From NCBI GenBank assembly GCA_951812955.1, contig OX638340.1, positions 1,888,001-1,952,000 on the forward strand: a stretch of DNA of 64,000 nucleotides. Direction: 5' to 3'. The DNA is from an uncultured Gemmatimonadota bacterium. GTDB taxonomy: Bacteria > JAAXHH01. The position numbers were made by a program, and so were the translations under genes. The stretch's first letter is position 1. The number at the start of each line of letters is the position of its first letter. Positions 10,344-64,000 of this stretch are shown here, piece by piece. The notes beneath the pieces were generated by a model. It saw only the letters and a program-made list of their open reading frames with translations, did not search any database and was not told where the DNA came from.

Positions 10344-10459
10344 ATGCCCGCTCGATGAAAGATGGGTGGTCTTGTCGGTCTCGGAGGTTTCATTGCGGCG
10401 CCGGCGTTAAAATGTCAAAAGAAAGGGCCCGAAGCTCGTTGCCCAACTTGCGGTACGTC

Positions 10460-12049: not shown

Positions 12050-12065
12050 CCGATTCCTTCCGGGT

Positions 12066-25511: not shown

Positions 25512-25512
25512 G

Positions 25513-27507: not shown

Positions 27508-27729
27508 GGAAAGGGCCGGATTGTGATACTTGCGGTGACTGAAATACGGTAATGAATCTAGTCTGCGGGTCCAGAATATGTAAAATGGCAGACGGTATAA
27601 GTCAAAGAAAAACAAAGTTCCATGAGGTCCTGAGCCACCATCGGCCAGACCTTTTCGTTGTTGACACGATTCCGGTTTGCGGGGATATTTCCATACCTTG
27701 ATGTACCCGTTTCATACGAGGGATTTACA

Positions 27730-38497: not shown

Positions 38498-38745
38498 GCG
38501 GCATTCCTTATACATTAAAATCCTCTGATCTATTTCTGTGGCATGTTCAAGGTTGCATTCCGTCTTCGTAACGGTGTTGACCTGAACCAGATCCGTTAAG
38601 GTCGAGTATACCTGCCTGGAAGATTCCAAGGTCCTGGAATCACACTACGTGGAACCAGGAAACATTTCTTCCGTCGCCACGGTCCAATGTGTTGGTTATT
38701 TGTCGATAACTTTTCCGATTCTGAATACTGCGATTGGAGGAGGTT

Positions 38746-40314: not shown

Positions 40315-40406
40315 TAGAGCGAAGACACAACCATTGAATCCCTACGGAAGTCTCAATGACAACTCCGGTAGATGTCTTTACTACACAACCGTGGGAGTGG
40401 AATAGT

Positions 40407-41171
40407 ATGAAGACGATATGGATCACAGCGATTACGTGTATAGGTATTTATCCGGTTCTTGATTCCGGCGCGCAGACCACAGAGGTCATTCAAGTTGGGC
40501 AAGGATACGCGGCAACCATTGAAGAAACATTTACTGTGGAACCGGGCGGCGAACTGACCATCGATGCCGACTTCGGATCCGTCCGGATCGAGACTTCGAC
40601 GAGCAACACCGTGGAGGTTCTTGTGGAAAAGCGCCTGAAAGAGGGCACCGAAGACCAGGCACGCCGAGCCTTCGAAGAAGTGGAGGTAACAACAGAACAG
40701 CGGGGCAACGACGTACACATCGACGTTGACAATTCGCGATGGTTCAAGCGCGCCAGGGTTTCCGTAGCTATGACCGTGCAGGTGCCTTATACATACAGTC
40801 TGGATATCAAGACGGCAGGAGGCGGCATCGAAATCGGGAACCTGGACGGCGAGATCACGGCGAAGACTGCAGGCGGAAGCATCAGGACAGGAACCACGAA
40901 AGGGGACGTGACCGCCAAGACCCTGGGCGGAAGCATCCGTATCGGCCCGACTGAGGGAGGCGTGTCTGCCAAGACGATGGGCGGAAATATCGCTATAGGG
41001 GATACGAATGGGGACGTGTCGGCCCACACGCTGGGTGGAAGCATCCGCATCGGCATTGCGGACGGGGATGTACTTGCCAGGACGATGGGCGGAAACATCA
41101 CCGTTGAAGAAGCCTCGGGTAAAGTGTCTGCCAAGACCCTGGGCGGAAAAGTCCGGGTCGGTTCCACGTAA
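40407..41171 (+). CDS. DUF4097 beta-helix repeat protein, paralog 2
   Basis: N-terminal domain colinear with paralogs 1 and 3 (GGELTIDADFGSVRIE...VEVLVEKR). 19-aa TLGGSIRIG rungs. Sec signal. Confidence 0.65.
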   Translation: MKTIWITAITCIGIYPVLDSGAQTTEVIQVGQGYAATIEETFTVEPGGELTIDADFGSVRIETSTSNTVEVLVEKRLKEGTEDQARRAFEEVEVTTEQRGNDVHIDVDNSRWFKRARVSVAMTVQVPYTYSLDIKTAGGGIEIGNLDGEITAKTAGGSIRTGTTKGDVTAKTLGGSIRIGPTEGGVSAKTMGGNIAIGDTNGDVSAHTLGGSIRIGIADGDVLARTMGGNITVEEASGKVSAKTLGGKVRVGST

Positions 41172-41219
41172 CATATCTCTGGCGAAGACAACACCGCCTG
41201 TTTAGACATAAAGGGAGGG

Positions 41220-42506
41220 ATGATGCGTTTGTTATTGGTCGTGGTCAGTGTCAGTCTGCTCGTTGCCTCGGCATATGCATGCAGCGCACAGGAGGTCACG
41301 TTTATGCGCGACGATATGAGTCACGTAGAAAGAACCCACCAGAAATACATGGTGGATGGAACCGGCACGTTGACCGTAGACGCCGACTTCGGTTCGATTC
41401 GGATCGAGAGCTGGCCGAACGATGAAGTGGACGTCGAGGTAGAAAAACGCCGGACTGGAGTCAGCGAAGACAGCGCACGCGACGACTTCAACGACGTTGC
41501 CGTGGATATCTCACAACGGGAGAACGACGTCGACATCCAGATCGACCGGAAAAGCCGTTTCGGGTCGGAGAGGGTATCAGTGGATATACAGGTCCGGGTG
41601 CCGGAATCGTATAGCCTGGACCTCAAGACCTCGGGCGGGGATATCGATATCGGAGACCTGCGGGGCGACGTTTCCGCCCGCACCTCGGGAGGCGACGTCA
41701 ACGTCGGCACAGTGACGGAAGCGCTGCTCCGCGTTCACACGTCAGGAGGCGATGTGACCGTGAAAGGGGGCGGACGGGAAACGAAGGTATCCACCTCCGG
41801 CGGGGATATTGAGATCCGGGACGCCCGGGGCACAGTGGATGCGACCACCTCGGGCGGTGATATCACGATCGGCGGCACGGCCGGCGAAGTGACGGTGAGA
41901 ACATCGGGCGGCGATATCGAAATAGATCGGGCTGCGGGAAACACAGAGGCGACTACCTCGGGCGGCGACATAACGATAGGCCATACCACAGGGGACGTGA
42001 AGGCGAAGACCTCCGGCGGCGATATCACGATCGAGCGCGCAAACGGTGAGGTGGACGTTCATACTTCGGGTGGCGATGTGACCATCGACAGCGCTGAAGG
42101 AACCCTGAGGGCGGGCACTTCGGGTGGTGATATATCGATCAGCAATGCGCCGGGTGCCGGCTTAACGGCGAAAACCTCGGGTGGCGATATCGAAGCCCGT
42201 TTGAGCCCGACAGCAAGTGCATTGGAAGAAGAATGGATACTGAAGTCGTCCGGTGGGGAACTGACCATCCGCATTCCCGAGGATCTGTCCGCTACAGTCG
42301 AGGCGGAGATCCATCATGAGCGTTCCTGGTTCGGAAGCGACCGGGGGGATTATCAAATCGACTCGGATTTCGACCTGGACGAAGAGGTAGATGACGGTCG
42401 GGACCGAAGGACGATCCGGGCCACCGGCGATATCAACGGGGGCGGCAATCGCATCCGGCTCGAAACCAGCGGCGGCGATATTCGGATTCGTAAGGTGACT
42501 TCCTGA
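41220..42506 (+). CDS. DUF4097 beta-helix repeat protein, paralog 3
   Basis: AAGGGAGGG RBS. Signal MMRLLLVVVSVSLLVASAYAC. At least nine 19-aa TSGGDITI rungs. Confidence 0.7.
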   Translation: MMRLLLVVVSVSLLVASAYACSAQEVTFMRDDMSHVERTHQKYMVDGTGTLTVDADFGSIRIESWPNDEVDVEVEKRRTGVSEDSARDDFNDVAVDISQRENDVDIQIDRKSRFGSERVSVDIQVRVPESYSLDLKTSGGDIDIGDLRGDVSARTSGGDVNVGTVTEALLRVHTSGGDVTVKGGGRETKVSTSGGDIEIRDARGTVDATTSGGDITIGGTAGEVTVRTSGGDIEIDRAAGNTEATTSGGDITIGHTTGDVKAKTSGGDITIERANGEVDVHTSGGDVTIDSAEGTLRAGTSGGDISISNAPGAGLTAKTSGGDIEARLSPTASALEEEWILKSSGGELTIRIPEDLSATVEAEIHHERSWFGSDRGDYQIDSDFDLDEEVDDGRDRRTIRATGDINGGGNRIRLETSGGDIRIRKVTS

Positions 42507-48587: not shown

Positions 48588-48653
48588 TTCACAAACAAAA
48601 ACACGTCCAGCGCCACGAACCAACCTGTCCGTGACACTGAACGTGCGTTTCTG
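48588..48653 (+). pseudogene. degenerate duplicate of the 3' end of the OMP gene (46630-47535)
   Basis: ~80% nucleotide identity to 47458-47523 (FTNKNTFSAMNQWSVTVNVRF vs FTNKNTSSATNQPVRDTERAF). No upstream ORF. Confidence 0.5.
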
Positions 48654-48720: not shown

Positions 48721-50091
48721 CTATCCCGTCGAATCCACGAAGACGCTGTGCGCGCTGCGGTCCTTGCCCGCGTCCTGCGTGTGCTGGTACGACCGATGCT
48801 CGGAAGGTTTGCCAAGTGAGGTGAGGTCAAGCATCTTCTCCGCGGTTCTCGTCGCCACATAGGGCCGCCGGATGTCGGTCGGATTGGCCTGGATGTGCTG
48901 CTTCCAGGCGCCCAGGTCCGTCTTCGCCTGGATCAGCCCCTTGATCATGCCCATGTCGTTCAGCATGGCCACGTCGTCCGCGGGTCCGAGGATGACTGCT
49001 CCGGTGATCGTGGAGCCGTTCCAGATCAGCTTGCGGTAGACCGGCCGGTTGGCGTTGATCACCTCGGTTACGTCGCCGTCCCCCGACCAGTCGCCGAAGC
49101 TCGCGCATTGGAGCCCGCACACGTCGAGGATATTGATCAGCAGGCTGCCGCCATATTCCACGTCCTGGCCGGCCATGTTGGCCCCGGCGATCCGGCCGTG
49201 ATCGACCGCGGTCGGCTGGATGGCGTGCACTGCCTGCCCGCCCGTGGACAGGTCCGGTCCCTCGGCCACGTCGCCCGCGGCGTACACGTTCGCCGCGCTG
49301 GACTGGCAACGGTTGTTGACCAGGACGCCCTGGTTGGTCTCGATACCCGAGCCTTCGAGAAAGCCGATGTTGGCCCTGATCCCGGTGGCCACGATGACCA
49401 CATCCGCCCGGGTGGACGACCCGTCGGAAAGCTGCAGGGTCTTGACGCCGTCGTGGCCGTGATCGATTCCCTGCACGCTTACGCCGGTGTGGACTTCAAC
49501 GCCCTGCGACTCGAGCCAGGAGTTCACGAGGGACGCGCCCTGGGCGTCCAGCATGCGGGGCAGCACCTGCCCTTCGAGCTCGATCACCTTCAGGCGGGCG
49601 CCGCGTTTGTGCATCGCGTTCAGAATGATGAAACCGATGAACCCGGCCCCGATGAAAGCCACCTCGGCATCGCTACCGAGGGCGCTCACGGTCTTTTCCG
49701 CGTCCGCTACGGTCCAGAGATTGTGGACCCCGTCGCCGTCCGCGCCGGGAATGTTCAACTGCTGGGCGGATGACCCGGTGGCGATCAACAGGTTGTCGAA
49801 AGGTACCATGGAGCCGTCGCTGAGCGAGACCATGTTCGCGTAGGGATTCACCTCGGTGACACTGACCCCGAAGCGGGTCTTCACTCCCAGCCTGCCGAAA
49901 TAGTCGTCGTCTCCGGTATTTACCTGTTCGACCGGGATATTCCCTGAGATGTAGTAAGGCAGGGCCATGCGGGAATAGGCCGGCTCATCGGAGATCAGGG
50001 TAATGGACGCGTCCGCATCGTAACCGCGTATCGTTTCGATAGCGTTCATCCCGCCCGGTCCGCCGCCTATAATCACGTGTTCTGTAGCCAT
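48721..50091 (-). CDS. FAD-dependent pyridine-nucleotide-disulfide-type oxidoreductase (AorC-like NAD(P)-binding subunit)
   Basis: 456 aa. IIGGGPGG FAD motif and FIGAGFIGF NAD motif. Last gene of the ferredoxin-AOR-AOR operon. Confidence 0.8.
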   Translation of the reverse strand: MATEHVIIGGGPGGMNAIETIRGYDADASITLISDEPAYSRMALPYYISGNIPVEQVNTGDDDYFGRLGVKTRFGVSVTEVNPYANMVSLSDGSMVPFDNLLIATGSSAQQLNIPGADGDGVHNLWTVADAEKTVSALGSDAEVAFIGAGFIGFIILNAMHKRGARLKVIELEGQVLPRMLDAQGASLVNSWLESQGVEVHTGVSVQGIDHGHDGVKTLQLSDGSSTRADVVIVATGIRANIGFLEGSGIETNQGVLVNNRCQSSAANVYAAGDVAEGPDLSTGGQAVHAIQPTAVDHGRIAGANMAGQDVEYGGSLLINILDVCGLQCASFGDWSGDGDVTEVINANRPVYRKLIWNGSTITGAVILGPADDVAMLNDMGMIKGLIQAKTDLGAWKQHIQANPTDIRRPYVATRTAEKMLDLTSLGKPSEHRSYQHTQDAGKDRSAHSVFVDSTG

Positions 50092-50154
50092 AATCCGCTC
50101 CTTCAGAGAAAGTACCGAAAATCGAAGTACAGGTCATCCGTGGTTTGGGTTCCG

Positions 50155-51984
50155 TTACGCGAGTCCCAGTTCCATCAGTTTCTCCGTGGTGGGCCGTCCG
50201 TCCGCCGACCAGCCCCTTGCCGCGTAGTAGTCCGGCAGCATGGCGTCGAGATCGACGGTCACCCCCGCGGAAGGACCATCCTTGTGGGCTTCTTCCATCA
50301 ATCGTTTAGGCAGCGTGTCATCGGCCGCGGTGAGGCCCGCCCTGAGATTCCACAGCCGTTCGATATTCCAGATGCGCTCGCCGATGTGCACGAAGTCTTC
50401 CATGGTATAGTCTACGCCGGTGGCTGCGGACAATACGGGGATCAGGTCTTCCAGCGGCGCGCCCGCCGTGGTGAACATGCAGATGCCCGTGGCGTCGTGG
50501 GCCGTGGTCCGGTTTTGTTCCTCGGCCACCCAGACCGACTTGCCCTCGGTGCCGTGGGGATCGTGCTCGCCGGTGGTCTCGATGCCGGGTGTCCAGGCCC
50601 TCAGGTGACAGGCGCCGCGGTTGCAGGTGGCATAGGCCACGCCCATGCCCTGGAATCCCCGTGGATCGTAAGCGGGGAATTCCTGTCCCTTGACGCCCAT
50701 GAAATACTCCGGATGCTCGAATTTCTCGGTCATCCGCTTTGACCCTTCGGCCAGTTCGTCGCCGAAACCCTCCCGGAATCCCGTGGCTTCCGTCATGGCG
50801 ACCAGAGCCTTGCCGTCACCGAACCGGAACGCCATGCCCGTCTGCCCATCGCTCAGCAGGCCCCGCTCATACATTTCCATGGCCGCGGCCAGCGTGGCGC
50901 CCATGGAAATGGGATCCATGCCGAGATCGTTGCACAGGTAGTTCGCCATGACGATGGCGTCCATGTCATCCACGCCGCAGTCGGCCCCGAGCGACCAGAG
51001 GTTCTCGTATTCGGGTCCTTCCCCGGCGACCTTCCAGTTGCGGGGATGCATGTTGACCATGTACTGGTCGGCATTGGGGGAAACCTGGGTCACACGGCCG
51101 CAGGCGATGTTGCAGGCGAAGCATGCCTTGTTGGCGACCAGCCAGTTATCCTTGATGCTCTCCCCGTTGATCGCCTCGGTGCCCTCGAACTGTCCGGCCG
51201 TGAAATTGCGCGTCGGCAGCCCGCCGAAAGCGTTGACGAGGTCGATCGTTGGCGCTGTGCCTAATTCCGTAAGGCCTTGCCGGCCAGGGCTTTCGGCCAG
51301 GTGTTCGTGATAAGGCCAGATGGCGGACATGTAGTCCCGGGGCCGGGCAATCCGGACCCCCTGGTTGCCGCGTACGGCGATCGCCTTGAGGTTCTTGGAC
51401 CCCATGACGGCGCCGACGCCGGAACGGCCCGCGGCACGGTGCTTGTCGTTGACGATGCACGCGAACCGCACCAGGTTCTCGCCCGCCGGTCCGATGCCGG
51501 CCACCCGTAGTTCGGGCATGCCGGTCTCGTCGCGGATGGCGTCCTCGGTTTCCGAGACCACCTTGCCCCACACATTGGAGGCGTCGCGGATCTCGACGCG
51601 GTCATCATCGACAAGGAGGTAGCACGGACGGTCCGACCGGCCTTCCACGATCACCATGTCGTAGCCGGCGAACTTGAGTTCCGGACCCCAGTGGCCGCCT
51701 GAATTGGACGTCGTGATGGCGCCCGTCAGCGGTCCCTTGGTCACCACCATGTACCTGGATCCGCAGGAGGCGTTGGTGCCCGTCAGCGGCCCGGTGGCCA
51801 TGATCAGCTTGTTGTCCGGTCCGAGGGCGTCGACAGAGGGGTCCATCTCCTCGTAGAGGTACCGCGCGGCCAGCCCGCGGCCGCCGATGTATTCCTCGGC
51901 CCAGTCGAGCCTCAGAGGCTCTTTGGTCGCCTTGCCCCGCGAAAGATCCACCCGCAGGATATGGCCGGCCCACCCGTGTGTCAT
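50155..51984 (-). CDS. aldehyde:ferredoxin oxidoreductase family (tungstopterin) enzyme, copy 1
   Basis: Start taken at MTHGWAGHILRVDLS (ORF extends to 52044). AOR N-terminal domain plus cluster-binding C-terminal domains. Confidence 0.9.
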   Translation of the reverse strand: MTHGWAGHILRVDLSRGKATKEPLRLDWAEEYIGGRGLAARYLYEEMDPSVDALGPDNKLIMATGPLTGTNASCGSRYMVVTKGPLTGAITTSNSGGHWGPELKFAGYDMVIVEGRSDRPCYLLVDDDRVEIRDASNVWGKVVSETEDAIRDETGMPELRVAGIGPAGENLVRFACIVNDKHRAAGRSGVGAVMGSKNLKAIAVRGNQGVRIARPRDYMSAIWPYHEHLAESPGRQGLTELGTAPTIDLVNAFGGLPTRNFTAGQFEGTEAINGESIKDNWLVANKACFACNIACGRVTQVSPNADQYMVNMHPRNWKVAGEGPEYENLWSLGADCGVDDMDAIVMANYLCNDLGMDPISMGATLAAAMEMYERGLLSDGQTGMAFRFGDGKALVAMTEATGFREGFGDELAEGSKRMTEKFEHPEYFMGVKGQEFPAYDPRGFQGMGVAYATCNRGACHLRAWTPGIETTGEHDPHGTEGKSVWVAEEQNRTTAHDATGICMFTTAGAPLEDLIPVLSAATGVDYTMEDFVHIGERIWNIERLWNLRAGLTAADDTLPKRLMEEAHKDGPSAGVTVDLDAMLPDYYAARGWSADGRPTTEKLMELGLA

Positions 51985-52070
51985 GAAGAAGGCTCCGTTC
52001 CTCGGCGCTAGCCGGGTGATGCAGGGCCGCGCCCTGTGGATCACCCTTCCGGCTCATGCCGGATGAAGCG

Positions 52071-53918
52071 CTAGGTCAATCCCAGCGACGACAGCTTCTC
52101 CTGGGTGGGTTCGCCTTCCGCGTTCCAACCGCGGAGTTCGTAGTATTCCGGCAGCATCTCGCCGAGCCGGTTTACTTCGCCCTTGGTCGGGCCATCGGGG
52201 ATCGGGTCTTCGAGCAGCCGCTTAGGCAGCGTGTCGTCCTTGCCCGAAAAGCCCGCCCGCTGGTTCCACATGCGTTCGATATTCCAGACGCGTTCTCCGA
52301 CTTCCATCAGTTCGGGTACGGAGTAGGAAATCCCGGTCACCGCCTCGAGCTGGGGCTGTATTTCGTCCAGGCCCACGCCGAAGGTCAGGAACAGGCAGAG
52401 TCCAGACGCGTCCACGGTGCAGGTGGCGTCCTGGAAGATCTTCGTGATCTCTGCTTTACCTTCCGTCACGGCCGGATCCATCTTCTCCGGAATCCCCAGG
52501 ATCTCGGGGGCGACCGTGTAGCTTTTCAAATGGCAGGCGCCTCGGTTCGAGGTCGCGTAACCCAGCCCCATACCCTGGATCGCGCGGGCGTCATAGGCTG
52601 GGAATTCCTGGCCGCGCACGCCCATGAAGTACTCCGGATGATTGAACTTGGCGGTCATGCGCTTCGATCCTTCAGCCAGTTCGTCGCCGAAGCCTTCGCG
52701 ATAGGCCGCCTTCTCCACCATGGCGACCAGCGCTTCGCTGTTACCGAAGTTGAGCGCCATGCCGGTTTGCTCGTCGGTGACTGCGCCGTTTTCGTATAAC
52801 TCCATGGCCGCGGCCAGGGTGGCTCCGAAGGAGATCGGATCCATGCCGAGTACGTTGCAAAGGGCATTGGCCTTGATGAGCGCATCCAGATCGTCGATGC
52901 CGCAATCGGCACCCATGGCCCAGGCGTTCTCGTACTCCGGTCCCTCGACCGCGATCTTCCAGTTGTGCGGCCGCGTGGTCACGGTGAACTTGTCCTGCGC
53001 CTCGCCCGGAAGCTGCGACACCCTCCCGCAGGCTATCGTACAGCCAAAACACGCCTTGTTGGCCACCAGTCGCGTATCGGCAAGGGTCTCCCCGCTGATG
53101 TTGTCCGCGCCTTCGAGCTGGGATACCTGGTGGTTGTTTGTCGGCAGTGCGCCGCTCTCATTGATGATATTGACCAGCACCGCGGTGCCGTATGCGGCCA
53201 GACCCTCACCCGTTACCGGATGCTCGACCAGCTTGCTCTTCATCTCCCACATGGCCGACATGAACTTCTGCGGGTCGGCGATGGGTACGCCCCCGGTACC
53301 GCGTACGGCAATGGCTTTGAGGTTCTTGGAACCCATGACCGCGCCGACGCCGGATCGTCCGGCGGCCCGGTGCCGGTCATTGATGATGGCGGCGAAACGC
53401 ACGAGGTTTTCGCCAGCTGGACCAATACAGGTAACGACCGTGTCGTGCTGTCCCGACTCTTCCCGGACGATGTCGTCCGTCTCCCATACCGTCTTGCCCC
53501 ACAGGTGTTCTGCAGAGCAGATGCGGACGTCGTCATCACAAATGGATATGTAGGACGGAACCGGCGCCCGGCCTTCCACGATCAGCATGTCGTAGCCGGC
53601 AAACTTCAGTTCCGGCCCCCAGTGGCCGCCGGAGTTGGACGTGGTAATGGCGTTCGTCAACGCCCCCTTGGTGATCACCATGTAACGGGAACTCGTCGAT
53701 GCGTTCGTGCCGGTCATGGGACCGGTCGCGAAGATCATCTTGTTGTCCGGGCCCAGCGCTTCCGCCGCCGGGTCCATCTCTTCATAGAGGTACTTGGCCC
53801 CGAGACCGCGCCCGCCAACAAAAGACGTGGCCCAATCCATGTTGAGGGGCTCTTTGGAGATCCGACCGGTGGTCAGATCGACGCGCAGAATCGTGCCTGT
53901 CCATCCGCCGTTGCTCAT
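52071..53918 (-). CDS. aldehyde:ferredoxin oxidoreductase family enzyme, copy 2
   Basis: Start MSNGGWTGTILRVDL overlaps the ferredoxin stop as ATGA. Paralogous to copy 1. Confidence 0.9.
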   Translation of the reverse strand: MSNGGWTGTILRVDLTTGRISKEPLNMDWATSFVGGRGLGAKYLYEEMDPAAEALGPDNKMIFATGPMTGTNASTSSRYMVITKGALTNAITTSNSGGHWGPELKFAGYDMLIVEGRAPVPSYISICDDDVRICSAEHLWGKTVWETDDIVREESGQHDTVVTCIGPAGENLVRFAAIINDRHRAAGRSGVGAVMGSKNLKAIAVRGTGGVPIADPQKFMSAMWEMKSKLVEHPVTGEGLAAYGTAVLVNIINESGALPTNNHQVSQLEGADNISGETLADTRLVANKACFGCTIACGRVSQLPGEAQDKFTVTTRPHNWKIAVEGPEYENAWAMGADCGIDDLDALIKANALCNVLGMDPISFGATLAAAMELYENGAVTDEQTGMALNFGNSEALVAMVEKAAYREGFGDELAEGSKRMTAKFNHPEYFMGVRGQEFPAYDARAIQGMGLGYATSNRGACHLKSYTVAPEILGIPEKMDPAVTEGKAEITKIFQDATCTVDASGLCLFLTFGVGLDEIQPQLEAVTGISYSVPELMEVGERVWNIERMWNQRAGFSGKDDTLPKRLLEDPIPDGPTKGEVNRLGEMLPEYYELRGWNAEGEPTQEKLSSLGLT

Positions 53919-54406
53919 GCCGCGTTCCCTCCCTCGATGGACTGCAGATAGGAAGCATTGACCTTTTCGGCCCAGCCACCCAGCCAGTCGGCCGATTCGC
54001 TCTCGGTGTATTCGATCGCGCCGGTGGGACAGGCGACCGCGCAGGCGGGATTGCCGTCGCACAGATCGCACTTGAAGGCCTTCTGCGTATCCGGATTGTA
54101 GAACACCGTGCCGAAGGGACAGGCAATGGTGCACAACCCGCATCCGACGCAGTTTGCATCGGCCACGACCTTGGCGCCGGTATCCGCGTCGACACTGATG
54201 GCGTTAACGGGGCAGGCCGTCATGCACCAGGCTTCGTCGCACTGAAAACAGGTGTACGGCGCGTAACTGGCCTGCTCATCGAAAATGTTCACGCGAATCA
54301 GCGACCGGGATGGTTGAAACATGCCGGTCTGCACCCAGGAACATGCCAGTTCGCACTGCATGCACCCGGTGCATTTTTCGGGTATAATGCGTAGAGATTT
54401 AGCCAT
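53915..54406 (-). CDS. 4x[4Fe-4S] polyferredoxin (AorA-like electron-transfer subunit)
   Basis: 163 aa with four CxxCxxCxxxCP motifs. Confidence 0.9.
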   Translation of the reverse strand: MAKSLRIIPEKCTGCMQCELACSWVQTGMFQPSRSLIRVNIFDEQASYAPYTCFQCDEAWCMTACPVNAISVDADTGAKVVADANCVGCGLCTIACPFGTVFYNPDTQKAFKCDLCDGNPACAVACPTGAIEYTESESADWLGGWAEKVNASYLQSIEGGNAA

Positions 54407-54665
54407 ACCGACTCCCTTCTGTAACGATGAGCTGGGTTTGGAGGCGTTTCTTTCTGCAGTCCAAAAAACGATAACGAGAGCCTCTTAGACGGGCCTCAAT
54501 TACGGGGTCTTAAGCCCGTCATCACGAGACGACTGCGATGTGATTCTTAAGGTGGTATCCTTAGAGACTACAGGGGTTACCAATCAGTATAATGACCCTG
54601 AAAAGGATTGGCAACAGCAAAACTTGCGACCGTTCGATTTATCCGCGGAGTCCGGCCGGAATCGA

Positions 54666-54986
54666 TCAGGCTCCGGGCAGCCTGTACGGCACGCTCTTGT
54701 TTACCGCGTCGTCGATCGTTTCCGGCGATAAAAGGACCGTGGTGGAGACTTCGAGCGCGCCTGCCGCGGCCACGTTCAGGGCAATCGCGGTCGCGGTCGC
54801 TTCGTCGGGAACCTCGGCGATGAGAATAAGATCGTCGTCGCCCAGGGCGTAGTAGAATCCTTCCAGCGCACCGCCCATCCCCTCGATCGTCTGCGAAAGC
54901 GCCGCACGCCGCCCGGTTCCGCCTTCCTTAAGAAGTCCCTGCAGGCCGGTTTGCGTGTACTTGGTACGGAACATGTACTTCGCCAT
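54666..54986 (-). CDS. GYD-domain protein
   Basis: 106 aa. GGALEGFYYALGDDDLILIAEVPDEATATA matches the GYD family core. Confidence 0.75.
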   Translation of the reverse strand: MAKYMFRTKYTQTGLQGLLKEGGTGRRAALSQTIEGMGGALEGFYYALGDDDLILIAEVPDEATATAIALNVAAAGALEVSTTVLLSPETIDDAVNKSVPYRLPGA

Positions 54987-59014: not shown

Positions 59015-59150
59015 CCGGTAGAGAACCACTCAGTTGTATCTCGGCCTCATGCGGTCACGTATTGCGCAGTCCAAAACCAGTAAAATGGCCGTGCGAACTG
59101 CCGATCATGGTATGTTACAGCACACATGCGATGACAAGCGAACGATTAAC

Positions 59151-60098
59151 ATGAACCATTCGCCAACCGATACGTCCGCGCCGACAGGTACGCTCGCGCC
59201 AACCAGGCACGACCCTATCGAAGTTTCTCCGATACGGGCGGTGAACGTGGCTTTGGTCCCTCAACGAAGTCCGCTGCGGTACCCCGGTGGAAAGACGTGG
59301 CTGATTCCGCATATCCGGTTCTGGCTCGGCAAGATCGACCCTTCGCCTCGACTTCTGATCGAACCCTTCGCCGGCGGCGGGATCGTCTCCCTGACAGCGG
59401 TCATGGAAGGACTGGCCGAGCGGTGCATCATGGCGGAACTGGACCCCGACGTGGCTGCTTTCTGGCAGGCGGCGCTCAGGTCCGGACCTGAGCTCTGCGA
59501 CAAGGTGCTGCGCTTCCGACCAACGCGGGAAGCCGTCGAAGCCGTGGCGAGTATCAGACCGAGCGACCCGGTAGACCATGGTTTCCGCACGCTCGTGCTC
59601 AACCGAACGCGAAGGGGTGGCATTCTGGCTCCCGGCGCGGCGCTCAGTCGGGCGGGAGAAAACGGGAAGGGCGTCGCGTCCCGCTGGTATCCCGAAACCA
59701 TCGTAGGCCGTTTACGAGAGATCGCGGAACACGCCGACCGCATCGGCTTTCGCGAAACCGACGGCATCGGGTTGTTGGAGGAGTTGCTGGAAGCACGCGC
59801 GGGATCGGCGCTGGAGAACCCTTCCGACCCGGTGGTCTTCGCCGACCCTCCGTACACGGCCGGCGGCAAGCGCGCGGGAAGGCGGCTGTACACCCACAAC
59901 GAGATCGACCATCACCGGTTGTTCGAACTGCTTGCGGACAGCGGTGCGCGTTTCCTGATGACCTACGACAGGTCGTCCGAGATCGTGGCTCTCAGCCGGA
60001 AGCATGGATTCCACGCGGTACAGGTGACCATGAAGAACACCCATCACGCACGGATACCGGAACTGATCATCACCCCCGAACCGGTGTTCGTCAGTTGA
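59151..60098 (+). CDS. Dam-like (D12 class, alpha-group) N6-adenine DNA methyltransferase
   Basis: RYPGGK N-terminal AdoMet motif and DPPY catalytic motif. ORF opens at 59034, so the exact start is uncertain. Confidence 0.8.
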   Translation: MNHSPTDTSAPTGTLAPTRHDPIEVSPIRAVNVALVPQRSPLRYPGGKTWLIPHIRFWLGKIDPSPRLLIEPFAGGGIVSLTAVMEGLAERCIMAELDPDVAAFWQAALRSGPELCDKVLRFRPTREAVEAVASIRPSDPVDHGFRTLVLNRTRRGGILAPGAALSRAGENGKGVASRWYPETIVGRLREIAEHADRIGFRETDGIGLLEELLEARAGSALENPSDPVVFADPPYTAGGKRAGRRLYTHNEIDHHRLFELLADSGARFLMTYDRSSEIVALSRKHGFHAVQVTMKNTHHARIPELIITPEPVFVS

Positions 60099-60973
60099 GT
60101 TCCCGTTACGGCATCGCGGAATGGTACGGGTTGCCATTCCCCTATCTCCCACCTGCTGCCCGCCATCATCTTGCAAAAAAAGCGTTACGGGAAGACCCCA
60201 ATGCTCCCGCGTGTCCGTTTCAAAACGGCCGGCCTCCATGCCGAAAGCGTGGCGGAATATGTTCCCTTGTTCGCTATGAACGGGATTCGGACGGAAGGCT
60301 TGGCTTGCCAAAAGGAAATCCGGTCATCGTTTGTCCGTCCCGATTCGAGGAAGAGCAACTGCTCGTTACCTGGTTGGCCGAGATCGTTGGCTTTGGACCG
60401 GACGAGGCGATGATCGCTCGCGAAGTAGCCTTCATGGAAGGAACCAGCACGGAGAGACCGGCTGGAAAAATCGATCTAGTCGTCGCCAGGGCCTCCAATG
60501 ACGATCTGAAATGGTTTGGACTGGAAATACAAGCCGTCTATTTCTCAGGTCAAGGCATGCCGTCCGAGTTCGCCAACCTACGGGACGACGATCATCGAAG
60601 ACCACCGTTTCCAAACGCGGTCCGTAGACCGGACTGGCGCTCTTCGAGCGCAAAGCGCCTCATGCCGCAGTTGCAAATCAAAGTGCCGACGCTACGCCGA
60701 TGGGGTTCGAAACTCGCCGTGTCGGTAGACCGGCCGTTTTTCGATTCGATTGGTGGTCCCAGTGCGCATCCCAGCCAGGACCTCAACGATGGGGACATCA
60801 TCTGGTTGATCCCGGAGTTGAAGCGGGAAGCCGGTGGTAACTTCAGGCTCACTCGGGGACATTGGGAAGTGCTCACGTTGGAGGATACGACCCGGAAACT
60901 CCTTGCGGCGGAAACGATCCGGCGGGAAGCGTTTGAGCAGGAGCTCCGCAGCAAACTCGAAGCGCTTCGGTGA
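60095..60973 (+). CDS. candidate type II restriction endonuclease (Cys-rich N-terminus, NotI-family-like)
   Basis: TTG start overlapping the methyltransferase stop (TTGA). Cys ladder ACPF...PCRK...GICS...VCPS. Possible D...E-x-Q/K region (KIDLVV...LEIQ). The NotI-family attribution is from memory and needs checking. Confidence 0.5.
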   Translation: MSSRYGIAEWYGLPFPYLPPAARHHLAKKALREDPNAPACPFQNGRPPCRKRGGICSLVRYERDSDGRLGLPKGNPVIVCPSRFEEEQLLVTWLAEIVGFGPDEAMIAREVAFMEGTSTERPAGKIDLVVARASNDDLKWFGLEIQAVYFSGQGMPSEFANLRDDDHRRPPFPNAVRRPDWRSSSAKRLMPQLQIKVPTLRRWGSKLAVSVDRPFFDSIGGPSAHPSQDLNDGDIIWLIPELKREAGGNFRLTRGHWEVLTLEDTTRKLLAAETIRREAFEQELRSKLEALR

Positions 60974-61073
60974 GGCAGCGGACGACACCCGGGATACTGG
61001 GGTTCAAGATCGACGACTCGGTGTTAACCTTATGTCATCGGATGTGTAGTGCACCCCAAAATGGGACAAGTAG

Positions 61074-61748
61074 TTAAGCTACAGTTTTAACACGTGTCAT
61101 CCTCTGCTCGAACTCGACCGGCGGTCTGTAGTCCAGGGCCGAGTGCAAGCGCTTGCGATTGTATAGTTTGTCGATGAAGTAGCCGATGCGTGATCGGGCT
61201 TCTTCCAGGGATTCGTACTCGTAGAGATAGACCTCCTCGTATTTGAGCGTCCTGATGAAGCGCTCTGCCCTGGCGTTGTCATAGGGGTTGCCTTGCCGGC
61301 TCATGCTGATCCGTATGCCAGCGTTCTTGAGCGTGTCTACATAGGCTTTCGAGGCATACTGCACGCTCCGGTCGGAGTGATGCACAAGCCCTTTCTGCGC
61401 TGGTCTGGCGGCCAGGGCGCTGTCGAGGGCGTTCAGGGCCAAGGTGGCATCGAGGGTTCGATCCAAGGCCCAGCCGATGCATCTTCTGCTGCAGGCGTCA
61501 AGGATCACCGCCAGATAGACCCATTCGCGAGCCAGCCTTATGTAGGTGATGTCGGATACCCAGAGCTGGTTGACATTGGTTACGTTCAGTTCCGGGACCA
61601 GGTTGGCGTAAACGGCGCGGTCGTGATTCGAGTCGGTGGTCGCTACGAAGGCTCGGCGCCGCAGGGCAAGCAGGTTGTCCTCGCGCATGAGACGCAGAAC
61701 GCGCTTGTGGTTCACATGGTATCCCATACGCTTTAGCGCGCGGGTCAT
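61074..61748 (-). CDS. IS3-family transposase OrfB (DDE integrase core)
   Basis: 224-aa frame with the rve-domain DDE pattern (...VSDITYI...LDACSRRCIGW...HSDRSVQY...). The N-terminal part lies in the -1 frame upstream. Confidence 0.85.
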   Translation of the reverse strand: MTRALKRMGYHVNHKRVLRLMREDNLLALRRRAFVATTDSNHDRAVYANLVPELNVTNVNQLWVSDITYIRLAREWVYLAVILDACSRRCIGWALDRTLDATLALNALDSALAARPAQKGLVHHSDRSVQYASKAYVDTLKNAGIRISMSRQGNPYDNARAERFIRTLKYEEVYLYEYESLEEARSRIGYFIDKLYNRKRLHSALDYRPPVEFEQRMTRVKTVA

Positions 61749-62064
61749 GGGACGGTAACCGTAGGCGGGTCAGGAAAGGGCGAGCCTGTGGATCTGATCC
61801 CGCAGTGCAAGGTCCGGATCCGTACGACCACGACGACCGCGGTAGTAGCTGGATCGACCGATCGAGAGCGTCCTGCACAGACGCTTGACCACGGCGCGGT
61901 CGGTGGACGCCTTTGATTGAGCGACCAGGCAGATCATGAGCTTCCTCCATTGCCTCGGGCTGAGCGTGGGATCTCCTCGAGCCGACTCAAGACTTTTTTT
62001 AACACATCGTTCTCCATGGTCAGTTGACCGACCTTGCGCTCAAGGGCCTAGGGTCCGGGCCTCG

Positions 62065-62259
62065 TCACTTACCGCCTTGCCATCCATTACCGGGGAAAGC
62101 GCGGTCGCCCTGGCGGCGAAGCTGCTGACGCCACCTGTGGATCAGCGTAGGATGGACCTGGTGTTCTCGGGCCAACTGGCTGATGGATTTGCCCGAATCG
62201 GCTTCCTGGAGAACCTGGAGCTTGAACTCGCGGGTGAACTGACGGCGTTTCAGGGACAT
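62065..62259 (-). CDS. IS3-family transposase OrfA (HTH)
   Basis: MSLKRRQFTREFKLQVLQEADSGKSISQLAREHQVHPTLIHRWRQQ is a typical IS3 OrfA helix-turn-helix. Confidence 0.75.
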   Translation of the reverse strand: MSLKRRQFTREFKLQVLQEADSGKSISQLAREHQVHPTLIHRWRQQLRRQGDRAFPGNGWQGGK

Positions 62260-62328
62260 GGGGTACCTCCTCGTTCAGAAGGAAGCTTAACTCACTGTCC
62301 CGGACAAGGGTGCAGTACACAGAACACG

Positions 62329-63252
62329 TTACAGAGGAAGTTTGTTGTAGCTGATTCCGAATCCAAACCGCACATCGTAAGAGCTCTGAGTCGGGACGGT
62401 GCTAAGCTCTTCGATATTCGAAGTATCGATCTTAGAGCCGCCCTGCATCGTCGGACCTTGACTTATATGAGCACCAAAGGTGAGCCAAGTAGACTTTCCG
62501 ATCTCCAAACTTGGACCGAAGATATATTCTAGAACCGTTCCCGGTTCGCCTCCGATTTCTGCGAGCGTTCCTAAACTCAAGTTTACATCCCAACCATTAC
62601 CAATCCGCAAAACGTGCGAATTAACAACGGTTCCTGGCATCACTTGGAAATCCGACCAACTTGTGAAGAAACCGACGCTAATAGAGAACGGGGACTCGCA
62701 AACGAACGTGACCAAAGGATACTCATTCTTCTTGGCGGCTTCGTTTTTCTCCCCGTCCTCATTATCTTGCGGGAACAAGTCGAAAACCACCAAGGTCCAC
62801 TCTTCTTTTCGAGATTTGAAGTCGCACTCGATCGACTGTGAGATTTCAGACTTGGTGCCCTTGTGCATCTCAATAGATGATTGAAGGTATCTTTTTAATG
62901 CCGTAATCTGATCGTTCGCTTGACTCCACTTACTTTCTGCTAATTCAATCTCTACAAGAGCACTGCCAGTCTGCGTCAACGCACTGTCAATCTGTGCCAA
63001 CAAAACACTGTCAGGTAATTGCAATGCACCGCCAAGTGCCTCCCTGTTGTTCCTATTTGCCAAGTTCATCAAACGATCCTGAAGGGAAACTTGGCGATCC
63101 TGAAGGGAAGATATCTGCGGCCAGTTTCCCTTCTCAATTTCACCTATGAGTTGACCGCTTCTGTATATCAGTGTGTCGCTTGGAAAATACATATTACTAA
63201 TATCAATGAAATCGCGCAGTTTCTTAATCTGATTAGAGGTTACTTGACGCAA
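62329..63252 (-). CDS. hypothetical protein (coiled-coil N-terminus, beta-rich C-terminus), lower-GC cargo
   Basis: 307-aa ORF in a ~47% GC segment. No recognisable motifs. May be the 3' part of a frameshifted larger gene together with 63240-63767. Confidence 0.4.
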   Translation of the reverse strand: MRQVTSNQIKKLRDFIDISNMYFPSDTLIYRSGQLIGEIEKGNWPQISSLQDRQVSLQDRLMNLANRNNREALGGALQLPDSVLLAQIDSALTQTGSALVEIELAESKWSQANDQITALKRYLQSSIEMHKGTKSEISQSIECDFKSRKEEWTLVVFDLFPQDNEDGEKNEAAKKNEYPLVTFVCESPFSISVGFFTSWSDFQVMPGTVVNSHVLRIGNGWDVNLSLGTLAEIGGEPGTVLEYIFGPSLEIGKSTWLTFGAHISQGPTMQGGSKIDTSNIEELSTVPTQSSYDVRFGFGISYNKLPL

Positions 63253-63767
63253 GCTGTTAGCCTGGTTTTGTGCAACGTCGGTTTCTTAAGCAAAGAGGCG
63301 GTTTCTCTAAATAAAGAATCGATGCCTTCAGGCGGTGTGCCAACGTTGCTTATATTAAACGAGGAATTGACGTTTTGAAACACACTATCAGCCTGGATTT
63401 CATTCGTCATCTCCCATTGGCATAGCTGGCGCAGGTAGTTGAGCGTATTGGGGGCGTCAAGCGCCTCAACCTGACGGCGGATTTCGTATCTATAGCGAAC
63501 TAAGTTAAGATCCACTACTGTGATGGATGCTTTGTAATGAACTTGCACTTCACCATAGGAACCTTGGGGCCTTTGAAGGGAGTAAGTCAAATCTTGTCCG
63601 GCAGCTACCGGCATATCTGATCCGACAAACAACAGCACACCGGCGATGTGGAAAAGAGCATTTAATAGACGATACTTCGTCCGAGATCCCCGTGGTGGTC
63701 CTAAGGAAACGAGCGGTATTCCTGAAATGACGGTTCTCACGTTTCGGTTCTCCGACATCCCTTTCAT
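63240..63767 (-). CDS. hypothetical secreted protein (possible 5' part of a split gene)
   Basis: 175-aa ORF with a signal-like LFHIAGVLLFVGSDMPVAAGQD. Ends 12 nt inside the start of the next ORF, in another frame. Confidence 0.35.
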   Translation of the reverse strand: MKGMSENRNVRTVISGIPLVSLGPPRGSRTKYRLLNALFHIAGVLLFVGSDMPVAAGQDLTYSLQRPQGSYGEVQVHYKASITVVDLNLVRYRYEIRRQVEALDAPNTLNYLRQLCQWEMTNEIQADSVFQNVNSSFNISNVGTPPEGIDSLFRETASLLKKPTLHKTRLTACVK

Positions 63768-63858
63768 AAACGACCTCCTGTAATTGGCCTCAAAAACTGG
63801 ATCTCGTCAAAGGTGGATGTACCATAGCAGACAACCCGGCACGCGGAAGGCCGATGGT

Positions 63859-64000
63859 ATGTTGAAAAGACGCAGACGGGCCCAGCGTCCGGTGCAAGTT
63901 TCAGGTGGCTCTCGAAGCGCTCATGGGACTGAAGGCCATCAGCCAGTTGGCCGCGGAGCATCAAGGCCAACACAATCAGATCACCAAATGGAAACGCCGG
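63859..64000 (+). pseudogene. second IS3-family orfA (5' end), apparent frameshift near codon 7-9, truncated by window edge
   Basis: Frame 0 MLKRRR... then frame +1 ...KFQVALEALMGLKAISQLAAEHQGQHNQITKWKRR. This aligns residue-for-residue with OrfA of the 61043-62321 element. The switch lies in CGGGCCCAG (63877-63886). Confidence 0.4.

What the first reader, a model, noticed from the sequence alone, without database searches (positions are those of the whole stretch)
48721..54406. AorABC-like tungsten aldehyde oxidoreductase locus with a duplicated catalytic subunit in a high-GC bacterium
The operon order is polyferredoxin with four [4Fe-4S] motifs, AOR, AOR, then FAD/NAD-binding disulfide-reductase-fold protein. 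This matches the AorA/AorB/AorC logic of the NAD-coupled bacterial tungsten AOR described for Aromatoleum. Here the AOR gene is tandemly duplicated, and the first AOR start overlaps the ferredoxin stop (ATGA). Two divergent AOR paralogs in one complex could mean a heteromeric catalytic core or substrate diversification. The locus requires tungstopterin, so tungstate uptake and cofactor genes should exist elsewhere.
Basis: partly seen in the sequence, partly recalled or inferred. Interest (0 to 1): 0.6.

Follow-up and report, generated by a model that had tools for sequence, protein, structure and literature searches.

The report
Tungsten aldehyde oxidoreductase operon, two catalytic subunits
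This is a four-gene operon for an NAD-linked tungsten aldehyde oxidoreductase of the Aromatoleum AorABC type that carries two old, both-functional versions of the catalytic subunit with different substrate pockets, an arrangement conserved in sponge- and coral-associated bacteria but apparently not yet described.

Summary
On the minus strand lie aorA (54406-53915; four [4Fe-4S] motifs), AOR1 (53918-52071; ATGA overlap with aorA), AOR2 (51984-50155) and aorC (50091-48721). A promoter-like site precedes them and a strong hairpin plus T-run follows.

All four proteins hit the A. aromaticum AorABC structure 8C0Z best or near-best. The two AORs are 61% identical, with near-saturated third codon positions. 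The same four-gene order occurs in about 23 related species-level genomes, several of them closed long-read chromosomes. It is therefore not an assembly artefact.

Both AORs keep every tungsten-cofactor, Fe-S and core catalytic residue, and both are under equal purifying selection (dN/dS about 0.05).

They are not a recent duplication. AOR1 belongs to the canonical AorB group. AOR2 belongs to a separate clade that is the sole AorB in planctomycete and betaproteobacterial aorABC operons. In that clade two benzoate-contacting residues are replaced (Y468W, F514A).

Dehalococcoidia carry the same canonical-then-variant pair. A sister lineage keeps only a decayed AOR2 remnant. The MoaD-like aorD gene found downstream in most relatives is missing here.

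Verdict: a new variant of a known kind. Whether both paralogs share one AorA wire is inferred, not shown.

The parts
54586..54614 (-). Promoter-like site (TTGCCA-17-TATACT) about 180 nt upstream of aorA.
   Evidence: 10 of 12 consensus matches. This is a consensus match only. The count in the region is not above shuffles.
53915..54406 (-). aorA: polyferredoxin subunit, 163 aa, four [4Fe-4S] motifs, with a C-terminal extension (DWLGGWAEKVN...).
   Evidence: Best PDB hit is 8c0z_C (E 1.3e-54), about 57% identical to Aromatoleum AorA. The C-terminal motif DW..xW[AG][ED]K is conserved across aorABC loci. dN/dS 0.034.
52071..53918 (-). aorB1 (AOR1): canonical tungsten catalytic subunit, 615 aa. Its start overlaps the aorA stop (ATGA).
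   Evidence: Hits 8c0z_A at E 3.5e-218. All W-cofactor, FS0 and second-shell residues are kept, as is the aromatic cage Y468/F511/F514. dN/dS 0.051. Groups with Methylomirabilales, Binatia and the Dehalococcoidia first copies.
51985..52070 (-). 86-nt GC-rich structured spacer between aorB1 and aorB2, ending in a conserved Shine-Dalgarno (GGAG) and TTCTTC before the ATG.
   Evidence: MFE -43 kcal/mol, z -2.8, no T-run. In orthologues its length varies from 30 to 110 nt and only the 3' SD part is conserved.
50155..51984 (-). aorB2 (AOR2): variant tungsten catalytic subunit, 609 aa, with a remodelled substrate pocket (W468, A514, plus R234, P245, T246, E496, R499, V584; Aromatoleum numbering).
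   Evidence: Hits 8c0z_A at E 1e-197. Cofactor and catalytic residues are all kept. W468 is fixed in 24 of 24 sequences of the window clade (window AOR2 plus 23 orthologues); position 514 is A in 22 and T in 2. dN/dS 0.055. Belongs to clade X with the planctomycete, betaproteobacterial and myxococcal sole AorBs.
50092..50154 (-). 63-nt unstructured spacer with a strong Shine-Dalgarno (AAGGAG) before aorC. No terminator.
   Evidence: z +1.9.
48721..50091 (-). aorC: FAD-containing, NAD-binding electron exit subunit, 456 aa.
   Evidence: Best PDB hit is 8c0z_E (E 2.2e-76), about 38% identical. R41, M42, R179 and Q294 equivalents and both GxGxxG motifs are kept. NCBIfam's nearest model is PadH, below its cutoff. 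dN/dS 0.060.
48601..48646 (-). Intrinsic-terminator-like hairpin (20 bp) followed by TTTTTGTTTGT; the end of the operon.
   Evidence: z -4.5; no shuffle folds as well.

Best explanation
The locus is one transcription unit, aorA-aorB1-aorB2-aorC. It encodes a Class III tungsten-containing oxidoreductase (AorABC or WorLSN type) with two different catalytic subunits.

Each AorB should bind a tungsten-bis-pyranopterin cofactor and one [4Fe-4S] cluster, and should oxidise aldehydes to acids or run the reverse reaction. Electrons pass into the four [4Fe-4S] clusters of AorA. AorA's C-terminal helix lets AorAB protomers stack into a conducting filament. A single FAD subunit, AorC, passes the electrons to NAD+.

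AorB1 has the canonical aromatic substrate cage. AorB2 belongs to a distinct old AorB clade with a reshaped and probably more polar pocket. The operon therefore connects two substrate ranges to one AorA/AorC electron module, either in mixed filaments or in two kinds of filament.

Shown here: gene content and order, homology to each Aor subunit, retention of all cofactor and catalytic residues in both paralogs, the pocket substitutions, purifying selection on all four genes, conservation of the arrangement, and the lack of internal terminators.

Inferred: tungsten rather than molybdenum, NAD coupling, filament formation, that AorB2 docks on this AorA, and that the pocket changes alter substrate range.
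For: Homology
- Pfam domains and PDB hits tie each gene to an Aor subunit; 8C0Z is best for AorA, AOR2 and AorC and second for AOR1.

Cofactor and catalytic residues
- Using numbering from PMC10413684, R75, N92, G94, R181, A182, C295, C298, C302, E331, D361, H464, D504 and C509 are conserved in both AORs and in all 23-24 orthologues of each.
- Core second-shell residues T243, E313, Y427 and H448 (P. furiosus numbering, PMC12096430) are conserved in both.

Substrate pocket
- Benzoate contacts in AorB are Y468, F511 and F514 (PMC10413684). AOR1 has Y/F/F. AOR2 has W/F/A.
- Only 8 alignment columns fully separate the AOR2 clade from the AOR1 side. They include 468 and 514, plus 245 and 246 next to active-site T243.

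Selection and conservation
- dN/dS is 0.034, 0.051, 0.055 and 0.060 for aorA, aorB1, aorB2 and aorC.
- The arrangement is conserved in L006-L031 and L053, including closed 3.6-3.9 Mb chromosomes.

Capacity of the AOR2 type to use AorA/AorC
- AOR2-type AorB is the only AorB in aorA-aorB-aorC(-aorD) operons of Betaproteobacteria, Planctomycetota and Myxococcota.

Other subunits and transcription signals
- The AorA C-terminal extension is present with a conserved motif. Its deletion abolishes filaments in Aromatoleum.
- AorC keeps its FAD and NAD contact residues.
- There is no terminator or stable hairpin before aorC, and a strong terminator follows it.
Against: - No experiment or structure shows that AorB2 binds this particular AorA. 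The AorA/AorC pair is phylogenetically closer to partners of AOR1-type subunits. aorA is translationally coupled only to aorB1.
- AOR2-type genes also occur without any adjacent aorA or aorC (L032, L039, L043, L089). That clade may therefore also work alone.
- A sister lineage has let aorB2 decay, so it is dispensable in some settings.
- The AorC C-terminal contact residues P419, M420 and R424 cannot be aligned. The tail is 32 aa longer here.
- No aorD/aorE, tungstate transporter or pterin-synthesis gene lies in the window.
- Whether the discriminating residues other than 468 and 514 line the substrate channel could not be checked without coordinates.
- Deep nodes of the neighbour-joining trees are weakly supported.
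Confidence: 0.7

Rival explanations
1. Only AorB1 assembles with AorA and AorC into the canonical complex. AorB2 is a stand-alone, ferredoxin-linked aldehyde oxidoreductase that merely shares the promoter.
For: - AOR2-type genes occur as orphans with no aorA or aorC within 6-7 kb in Latescibacterota and Planctomycetota (L032, L039, L043, L089).
- aorA is translationally coupled to aorB1 only (ATGA). aorB2 has its own leader and Shine-Dalgarno.
- AorA and AorC group with partners of AOR1-type subunits.
Against: - The same AOR2-type clade is the sole catalytic subunit in many aorA-aorB-aorC-aorD operons. The clade is therefore competent to use AorA/AorC.
- aorB2 sits between aorB1 and aorC, not at an operon end. 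The same order recurs in Dehalococcoidia.
- Both paralogs lack the Fe-bridging dimer residues of P. furiosus AOR.
Confidence: 0.2
2. aorB2 is a redundant copy that is drifting towards loss and contributes nothing distinct.
For: In the closest outgroup (L001-L003, 84% AOR1 identity) only fragments of an AOR2 orthologue remain between aorB and aorC. These are the N-terminal 66 aa with a frameshift, a GVGAVMGSKNLKAI piece, and the C-terminal GWSPDGKPTQEKLMELGLA. In L004 and L005 nothing is left.
Against: - In the window's own clade the ORF is intact in every genome. dN/dS is 0.055, the same as aorB1.
- All cofactor and catalytic residues are invariant, and the pocket signature is fixed.
- The copies are 61% identical with near-saturated third positions, so the copy has been retained for a very long time.
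Confidence: 0.04
3. The second AOR is an assembly artefact: collapsed alleles or a chimeric join.
For: None found.
Against: - Identity is 61% at the amino-acid level. The longest identical aligned nucleotide run is 17 nt.
- The identical gene order and flanking synteny appear in independent long-read assemblies, including circular 3.65 Mb contigs, and in about 23 species-level genomes.
Confidence: 0.01

Closest known systems
AorABC of Aromatoleum aromaticum EbN1 (PDB 8C0Z; Class III WOR or 'type N'; PMC6365974, PMC10413684, PMC13328260)
   Same: - Same three subunit types in the same gene order.
- AorA has four [4Fe-4S] motifs and the C-terminal filament helix region.
- AorB keeps all W-cofactor, FS0 and catalytic residues. 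AOR1 also keeps the Y468/F511/F514 benzoate cage.
- AorC keeps the FAD and NAD contact residues.
- Identities to the Aromatoleum subunits are about 57% (AorA), 56% and 54% (AOR1, AOR2) and 38% (AorC).
   Different: - Two aorB genes instead of one.
- The second has W468/A514 and six further clade-specific changes.
- No MoaD-like aorD/aorE downstream.
- AorC is 32 aa longer at the C-terminus, and its inter-subunit contact residues are not alignable.
- The host is an uncultured sponge- or coral-associated bacterium labelled Latescibacterota or Gemmatimonadetes.
aorA-aorB-aorB'-aorC-aorD loci of marine Dehalococcoidia MAGs (L061, L062, L064-L069, L071, L073, L074; uncharacterised)
   Same: - Same order: a canonical-type AorB first, then an AorB of the variant clade.
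- The second copies carry F468 and A, S or G at 514.
- Their AorA+AorC group with the window clade in the tree at 61% bootstrap.
   Different: - They keep a ThiS/MoaD-like gene after aorC.
- A spacer of about 320 nt lies before aorC.
- The second copies are only about 59% identical to AOR2 and branch outside the group of AOR2 plus the planctomycete and betaproteobacterial sequences.
Single-copy aorABC(D) operons with an AOR2-type catalytic subunit in Betaproteobacteria, Planctomycetota and Myxococcota MAGs (L033-L048, L090; uncharacterised)
   Same: AorB is 67-71% identical to AOR2 and has the same W468 and small-514 pocket signature. AorA and AorC are adjacent.
   Different: - Only one AorB.
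- aorA and aorB are separated by about 70-80 nt rather than overlapping.
- aorD is present.
WorABCSL of Acetomicrobium mobile (PDB 9MQX; Class IV, electron-bifurcating; PMC12318220)
   Same: WorL and WorS are close homologues of AorB and AorA (E 1.6e-224 and 6.7e-31). The WorSL units also form a nanowire.
   Different: There are no BfuABC-type genes near the window operon. The exit module is a single FAD protein of the AorC type.
Pyrococcus furiosus AOR (PDB 1AOR; Class I homodimer)
   Same: 50-53% identical catalytic subunit with the same cofactor ligands and second-shell residues.
   Different: It has no AorA or AorC partners. The dimer-bridging Fe ligands E332 and H383 are absent from both window AORs. 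Both window AORs have the roughly 13-residue loop after the Cys motif that AorB has and P. furiosus AOR lacks.

Membership tests
AorABC / Class III WOR (WorLSN) | Genes for a polyferredoxin (AorA/WorS), a W-pterin subunit (AorB/WorL) and an FAD/NAD subunit (AorC/WorN) in one operon. | tested here: met
   No internal terminator, and a terminator after aorC.
AorABC / Class III WOR (WorLSN) | AorA binds four [4Fe-4S] clusters through four Cys motifs. | tested here: met
   16 Cys in four motifs, read directly from the translation. Fer4 dicluster families. Aligned to 8c0z_C.
AorABC / Class III WOR (WorLSN) | A C-terminal helix of about 20 residues on AorA that mediates filament formation. It is absent in Moorella-type AorA. 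| tested here: met
   A 25-30 aa extension after the last Cys motif aligns with the Aromatoleum helix. The motif DW..xW[AG][ED]K is conserved in 20 or more loci (papers). Filament formation itself cannot be tested with these tools.
AorABC / Class III WOR (WorLSN) | AorB residues binding W-bis-MPT, Mg and the FS0 cluster: R75, N92, G94, R181, A182, C295, C298, C302, D361, D504, C509. | tested here: met
   All are conserved in AOR1 and AOR2 and in all sequences of each window-clade cluster (25 for AOR1, 24 for AOR2).
AOR sensu stricto (AOR/WOR family) | Four conserved second-shell catalytic residues: T243, E313, Y427, H448 (P. furiosus numbering). | tested here: met
   Conserved in both paralogs and in both clades.
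AOR sensu stricto (AOR/WOR family) | The aromatic substrate cage Y468/F511/F514 (Aromatoleum numbering; Y468 = Y452 in P. furiosus), typical of broad-range AORs that convert aromatic aldehydes. | tested here: not met
   AOR1 has Y/F/F and meets it. AOR2 has W/F/A and does not. The whole AOR2 clade has W or F at 468 and A, S, T or G at 514. This feature bears on substrate range, not on family membership.
AorABC / Class III WOR (WorLSN) | AorC FAD and NAD contacts (R41, M42, R179, Q294) and Rossmann GxGxxG motifs. | tested here: met
   All are conserved in the alignment to 8c0z_E. Pyr_redox_2 domain.
AorABC / Class III WOR (WorLSN) | AorC C-terminal helix contacts to AorA', AorA'' and AorB (P419, M420, R424). 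| tested here: inconclusive
   The alignment to 8c0z_E ends at residue 415. The window protein has a different, longer tail.
AorABC / Class III WOR (WorLSN) | MoaD-like maturation genes aorD/aorE in the operon (an accessory feature of the Aromatoleum operon). | tested here: not met
   A ThiS/MoaD-like gene follows aorC in about 38 other loci. None is found in the window or in the loci of its clade, even at E <= 5.
AorABC / Class III WOR (WorLSN) | Tungsten content and NAD+-dependent aldehyde oxidation. | not testable with these tools
   Needs metal analysis and enzyme assays.
Class IV bifurcating WorABCSL | BfuABC-type subunits encoded with WorSL. | tested here: not met
   The neighbours are GYD, methyltransferase, arginase-family, OMP and DUF5916 genes. 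No Bfu-like genes were found.
Class I homodimeric AOR (P. furiosus type) | Fe-bridging dimer residues E332 and H383. | tested here: not met
   AOR1 has K and V. AOR2 has M and V.

The most novel reading that the evidence does not exclude
AorB1 and AorB2 decorate the same AorA polyferredoxin filament, giving a heteromeric enzymatic nanowire.

Two chemically different tungsten sites would then be wired to each other as well as to AorC. The complex could pool electrons from two aldehyde classes into NAD+. It could also pass electrons from oxidation at one site type to acid reduction, or another reduction, at the other without free carriers.

The AOR2-type clade would be a separate functional subclass of AorB with a polar, non-aromatic-cage pocket.
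Probability: 0.3. Interest if true: 0.7.

Novelty: new variant of a known kind. Interest (0 to 1): 0.45.

Why it matters
- Only one Class III tungsten oxidoreductase, Aromatoleum AorABC, has been characterised (PMC13328260). It is of biotechnological interest because it reduces acids with H2 and couples to NAD.
- This locus shows a natural design in which two distinct catalytic modules are encoded with a single wire subunit and a single exit subunit. It offers a direct test of whether AorA filaments can carry mixed catalytic subunits.
- It defines a widespread but uncharacterised AorB clade by a simple pocket signature (W/F468, small residue at 514, charged residues at 234, 496 and 499). That signature can guide substrate screening and engineering.
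- It documents gain, loss and decay of catalytic subunits within one operon family.
- It points to tungsten-dependent aldehyde or acid metabolism in sponge- and coral-associated bacteria.

Tried and rejected
- **Exact look-up.** The exact AOR1 protein is not on record, so context came from close homologues instead.
- **Misassembly or collapsed alleles.** Rejected.
- **Terminator or strong structure between AOR2 and aorC.** None found.
- **AOR1-AOR2 spacer as a conserved RNA element.** It folds well in the window. Its length and sequence vary among orthologues (30-110 nt), and Rfam finds nothing in the window. I do not claim a regulatory RNA.
- **Recent in-place duplication or gene conversion.** Rejected. 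Third-position identity is 0.33-0.55 in 14 of the 15 40-codon windows, and the longest identical run is 17 nt. One 40-codon window (81-120) reaches 0.75, but it is the most conserved protein segment.
- **aorD/aorE, tungstate transport or pterin-synthesis genes in the 64-kb window.** None found.
- **Neighbourhood clues to the substrate.** The flanking genes are unrelated, and synteny is conserved only within the clade.
- **Origin of the pair.** The AOR tree and the AorA+AorC tree do not agree cleanly and deep nodes are weak. I could not choose between ancient duplication with differential loss and lateral insertion of an AOR2-type gene.
- **Structure prediction.** Not run. The tool returns no coordinates, so it could not show whether the discriminating residues line the channel or whether AorB2 docks on AorA.
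- **Literature.** Searches found no description of tandem aorB or WorL genes in a Class III operon. The library is incomplete, so this is absence of evidence only.

Full report
**1. What is in the sequence**

Four consecutive ORFs lie on the minus strand between 54406 and 48721.

- aorA (54406-53915) encodes 163 aa with sixteen cysteines in four ferredoxin-type motifs. It matches 4Fe-4S dicluster families.
- AOR1. The mechanical 690-aa ORF that follows begins inside aorA. The biologically sensible start is the ATG at 53918, which forms ATGA with the aorA stop. This gives a 615-aa protein whose AFOR_N domain starts at residue 8.
- AOR2 starts at the ATG at 51984 (MTHGWAGH...), 609 aa. Orthologues are called at the same length.
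- aorC (50091-48721) is a 456-aa Pyr_redox_2 flavoprotein.

The spacers are 86 nt and 63 nt.

- The 63-nt spacer before aorC carries AAGGAG. It has no terminator-like site and does not fold better than shuffles (z +1.9).
- A 20-bp hairpin followed by TTTTTGTTTGT lies immediately after aorC (48646-48601; z -4.5).
- A promoter-like site lies upstream of aorA (54614-54586).

**2. Homology to AorABC**

AorA, AOR2 and AorC have a chain of 8C0Z, the cryo-EM structure of the Aromatoleum aromaticum AorABC filament, as their best solved-structure match. For AOR1 it is the second-best match.

| Window protein | 8C0Z chain | E-value |
|---|---|---|
| AorA | C | 1.3e-54 |
| AOR1 | A | 3.5e-218 |
| AOR2 | A | 1e-197 |
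| AorC | E | 2.2e-76 |

The Acetomicrobium WorL/WorS pair (9MQX) is similarly close for the first two subunit types, and 9mqx_D is the top hit for AOR1 (E 1.6e-224). No Bfu-type genes are nearby. Identities to the Aromatoleum subunits are about 57% (AorA), 56% and 54% (AOR1, AOR2) and 38% (AorC).

**3. Defining features, taken from the papers and tested here**

PMC10413684 lists the W-cofactor, Mg and FS0 ligands of AorB, its catalytic E331 and H464, and the benzoate contacts Y468, F511 and F514. PMC12096430 lists the family's second-shell residues T243, E313, Y427 and H448 (P. furiosus numbering) and the highly conserved Y452, which equals Y468 in Aromatoleum.

- My transcription of the 8C0Z chain reproduces the published numbering.
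- In a 129-sequence alignment, every cofactor and core catalytic residue is conserved in both AORs and in all sequences of each window-clade cluster (25 for AOR1, 24 for AOR2, each including the window protein).
- AorA has a 25-30-residue C-terminal extension that aligns with the Aromatoleum filament helix. It carries a motif (DW..xW[AG][ED]K) conserved across aorABC loci.
- That helix is required for filament formation in Aromatoleum, and its absence is used to predict non-filamentous Moorella AOR.
- AorC keeps the equivalents of R41, M42, R179 and Q294 and both GxGxxG motifs. Its C-terminal tail is longer, and the published inter-subunit contact residues cannot be aligned.

**4. The two AORs are real, old and both maintained**

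- They are 61% identical.
- Third-codon-position identity is 0.33-0.55 in 14 of the 15 40-codon windows; the exception is codons 81-120 at 0.75. The longest identical aligned run is 17 nt.
- The same aorA-AOR1-AOR2-aorC order, with the same flanking synteny (GYD protein upstream; arginase-family, OMP, DUF5916, PALP and DUF4097 genes downstream), is present in independent assemblies. These include long-read contigs of 2.5-3.65 Mb.
- The order also occurs in about 23 species-level representative genomes (L010-L031, L053).
- Those genomes are MAGs variously labelled Gemmatimonadetes, Latescibacterota or Zixibacteria. Judging by their isolate names, many appear to come from sponges and a coral (my inference; the record titles do not state a source).
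- Nei-Gojobori dN/dS against 22-23 orthologues is 0.034 (aorA), 0.051 (AOR1), 0.055 (AOR2) and 0.060 (aorC).

Misassembly and pseudogenisation are therefore excluded for this genome.

**5. They are not a simple local duplication**

A neighbour-joining tree with 100 bootstraps gives the following.

- AOR1 groups with the sole AorB of Methylomirabilales and Binatia operons (73-75% identity) and with the first copies of Dehalococcoidia tandem loci.
- AOR2 falls in a separate clade, here called X.
- Within X, AOR2 groups at 94% bootstrap with the sole AorB of betaproteobacterial, planctomycete and myxococcal aorABC operons (67-71% identity).
- The second copies of the Dehalococcoidia loci are sister to that group at 79%.
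- Aromatoleum AorB lies on the AOR1 side.
- Deep nodes are weak.

A concatenated AorA+AorC tree puts the window clade with the Dehalococcoidia tandem loci (61%). It places the clade-X single-copy operons apart (81%). AorA and AorC thus track AOR1 better than AOR2.

Two histories fit. One is an ancient aorA-B1-B2-C ancestor with repeated loss of either copy. The other is lateral insertion of a clade-X aorB into a canonical operon. I could not decide between them.

Loss does happen.

- In the nearest outgroup (L001-L003), the space between aorB and aorC holds only wreckage of an AOR2 orthologue.
- The wreckage consists of 66 N-terminal residues with a frameshift, a GVGAVMGSKNLKAI fragment, and the C-terminal GWSPDGKPTQEKLMELGLA.
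- In L004 and L005 nothing recognisable remains.

**6. The substrate pocket differs**

- AOR1 has the canonical Y468/F511/F514 cage, like Aromatoleum AorB, P. furiosus AOR and WorL.
- AOR2 has W468/F511/A514. W is fixed in 24 of 24 sequences of the window clade. Position 514 is A in 22 and T in 2.
- Across clade X, position 468 is W or F, and 514 is A, S, T or G.
- Across 24 representatives of the AOR1 side, both positions are invariant Y and F.
- Only eight alignment columns have completely disjoint residue sets between the two sides: 234, 245, 246, 468, 496, 499, 514 and 584.
- Two of these are the published substrate contacts. Two flank the active-site T243. In AOR2, three introduce charge (R234, E496, R499).

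I infer a reshaped, more polar pocket and a different substrate range. Without coordinates I could not verify that the other six positions line the channel.

**7. Most likely mechanism**

The four genes form one operon for a Class III tungsten oxidoreductase.

- Each AorB oxidises aldehydes at a W-bis-pyranopterin site, or reduces acids.
- Electrons pass via FS0 to the four clusters of AorA.
- AorA stacks through its C-terminal helix.
- One AorC passes electrons from the wire to NAD+ via FAD.

Clade-X AorBs serve as the only catalytic subunit of AorA/AorC operons elsewhere. AOR2 is therefore very probably competent to dock on an AorA. The simplest reading is that both paralogs use the single AorA/AorC module encoded here, which extends the substrate range of one NAD-coupled machine.

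Whether the filaments are mixed or homotypic is open.

Points against the shared-module reading are as follows.

- aorA is translationally coupled only to AOR1.
- AorA and AorC are evolutionarily closer to partners of AOR1-type subunits.
- Clade-X genes also occur with no aorA or aorC nearby (L032, L039, L043, L089).

A stand-alone AOR2 is thus a serious rival.

**8. Other differences from the known system**

Nearly every other aorABC locus retrieved has a ThiS/MoaD-like gene with a C-terminal GG right after aorC. This includes the Dehalococcoidia tandem loci. The gene corresponds to aorD of Aromatoleum.

The window, all 64 kb of it, and the loci of its clade have none, even at E <= 5. Here aorC is followed by a terminator. 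No tungstate transporter or pterin-biosynthesis gene lies in the window.

**9. Novelty**

The most recent classification states that only AaAOR has been characterised in Class III. The papers I could search do not mention two WorL or AorB genes in such an operon.

The family, fold and chemistry are known. The two-paralog architecture, the clade-X pocket signature and the missing aorD are new variations.

I rate it a new variant of a known kind, with moderate interest (0.45). It would interest tungsten-enzyme and nanowire specialists and is readily testable. It does not overturn anything.

Noticed in passing
window 51985-52070 (minus strand); the same position in L006-L031: The spacer between the two AOR genes folds into a stable GC-rich multi-hairpin (-43 kcal/mol, z -2.8). 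Among orthologues it varies from 30 to 110 nt with little sequence conservation, apart from the final GGAG..TTCTTC before the ATG. It may act as an intercistronic stabiliser or processing site that sets the B1:B2 ratio.
   Followed up: partly
L001 9846-10292 (also L002, L003): A heavily deleted pseudogene of the AOR2 orthologue sits between aorB and aorC in the closest outgroup lineage. The gene caller reports it as a 46-56 aa 'AFOR_N' ORF.
   Followed up: yes
L090 9149-10774: In a planctomycete-type aorA-aorB-X-aorC-thiS locus, a 541-aa ORF with no Pfam match and no relative in any other fetched locus sits between aorB and aorC.
   Followed up: partly
L054 3621-7839; L063 924-3449; L033 1-1392: Other kinds of AOR pairing exist. 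One Dehalococcoidia contig has aorA, then a distant AOR (35% identity), then a canonical AorB. A Binatia genome and a Phycisphaerae contig each carry a second, very distant AOR locus (29% and 40% identity to the window AORs) a few kb upstream of the aorABC operon; in the Binatia genome it has its own ferredoxin gene.
   Followed up: no
window 38734-42506 (+ strand): Three consecutive proteins of DUF4097 'toastrack' type, or with similar repeats, lie here; the middle one (40356-41171) has no Pfam match of its own. They contain internal 108-nt (36-aa) tandem repeats (39376-39845: 4.4 copies, 87% matches; 40896-41099). This region has the lowest GC outside the window end and the strongest GC and AT skew in the window.
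   Followed up: partly
window 59034-61748 and 62000-64000: A D12-class adenine methyltransferase and a NotI-family restriction endonuclease are followed by an rve-family (IS) integrase gene. GC drops to 0.50 in the last 2 kb. This is probably a mobile restriction-modification islet.
   Followed up: no
window 6878-13715 (minus strand): A run of nitrogen-compound catabolism genes: creatininase, two amidohydrolases, histidine/aromatic ammonia-lyase (hutH-like) and urocanase (hutU).
   Followed up: no
window 20925-27615 and 34391-36388 (minus strand): Two paralogous large DUF6785/DUF6784 membrane proteins lie here. One is adjacent to a 1528-aa protein that combines M28 peptidase/PA domains with MacB/FtsX permease domains. 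A 685-aa ORF (17599-19656) has no Pfam match.
   Followed up: no
window 54666-54986 (minus strand): A GYD-domain protein gene lies about 260 nt upstream of aorA on the same strand. It is syntenic in the window's clade only (L006-L009). Relatives with a single aorB have other neighbours.
   Followed up: partly
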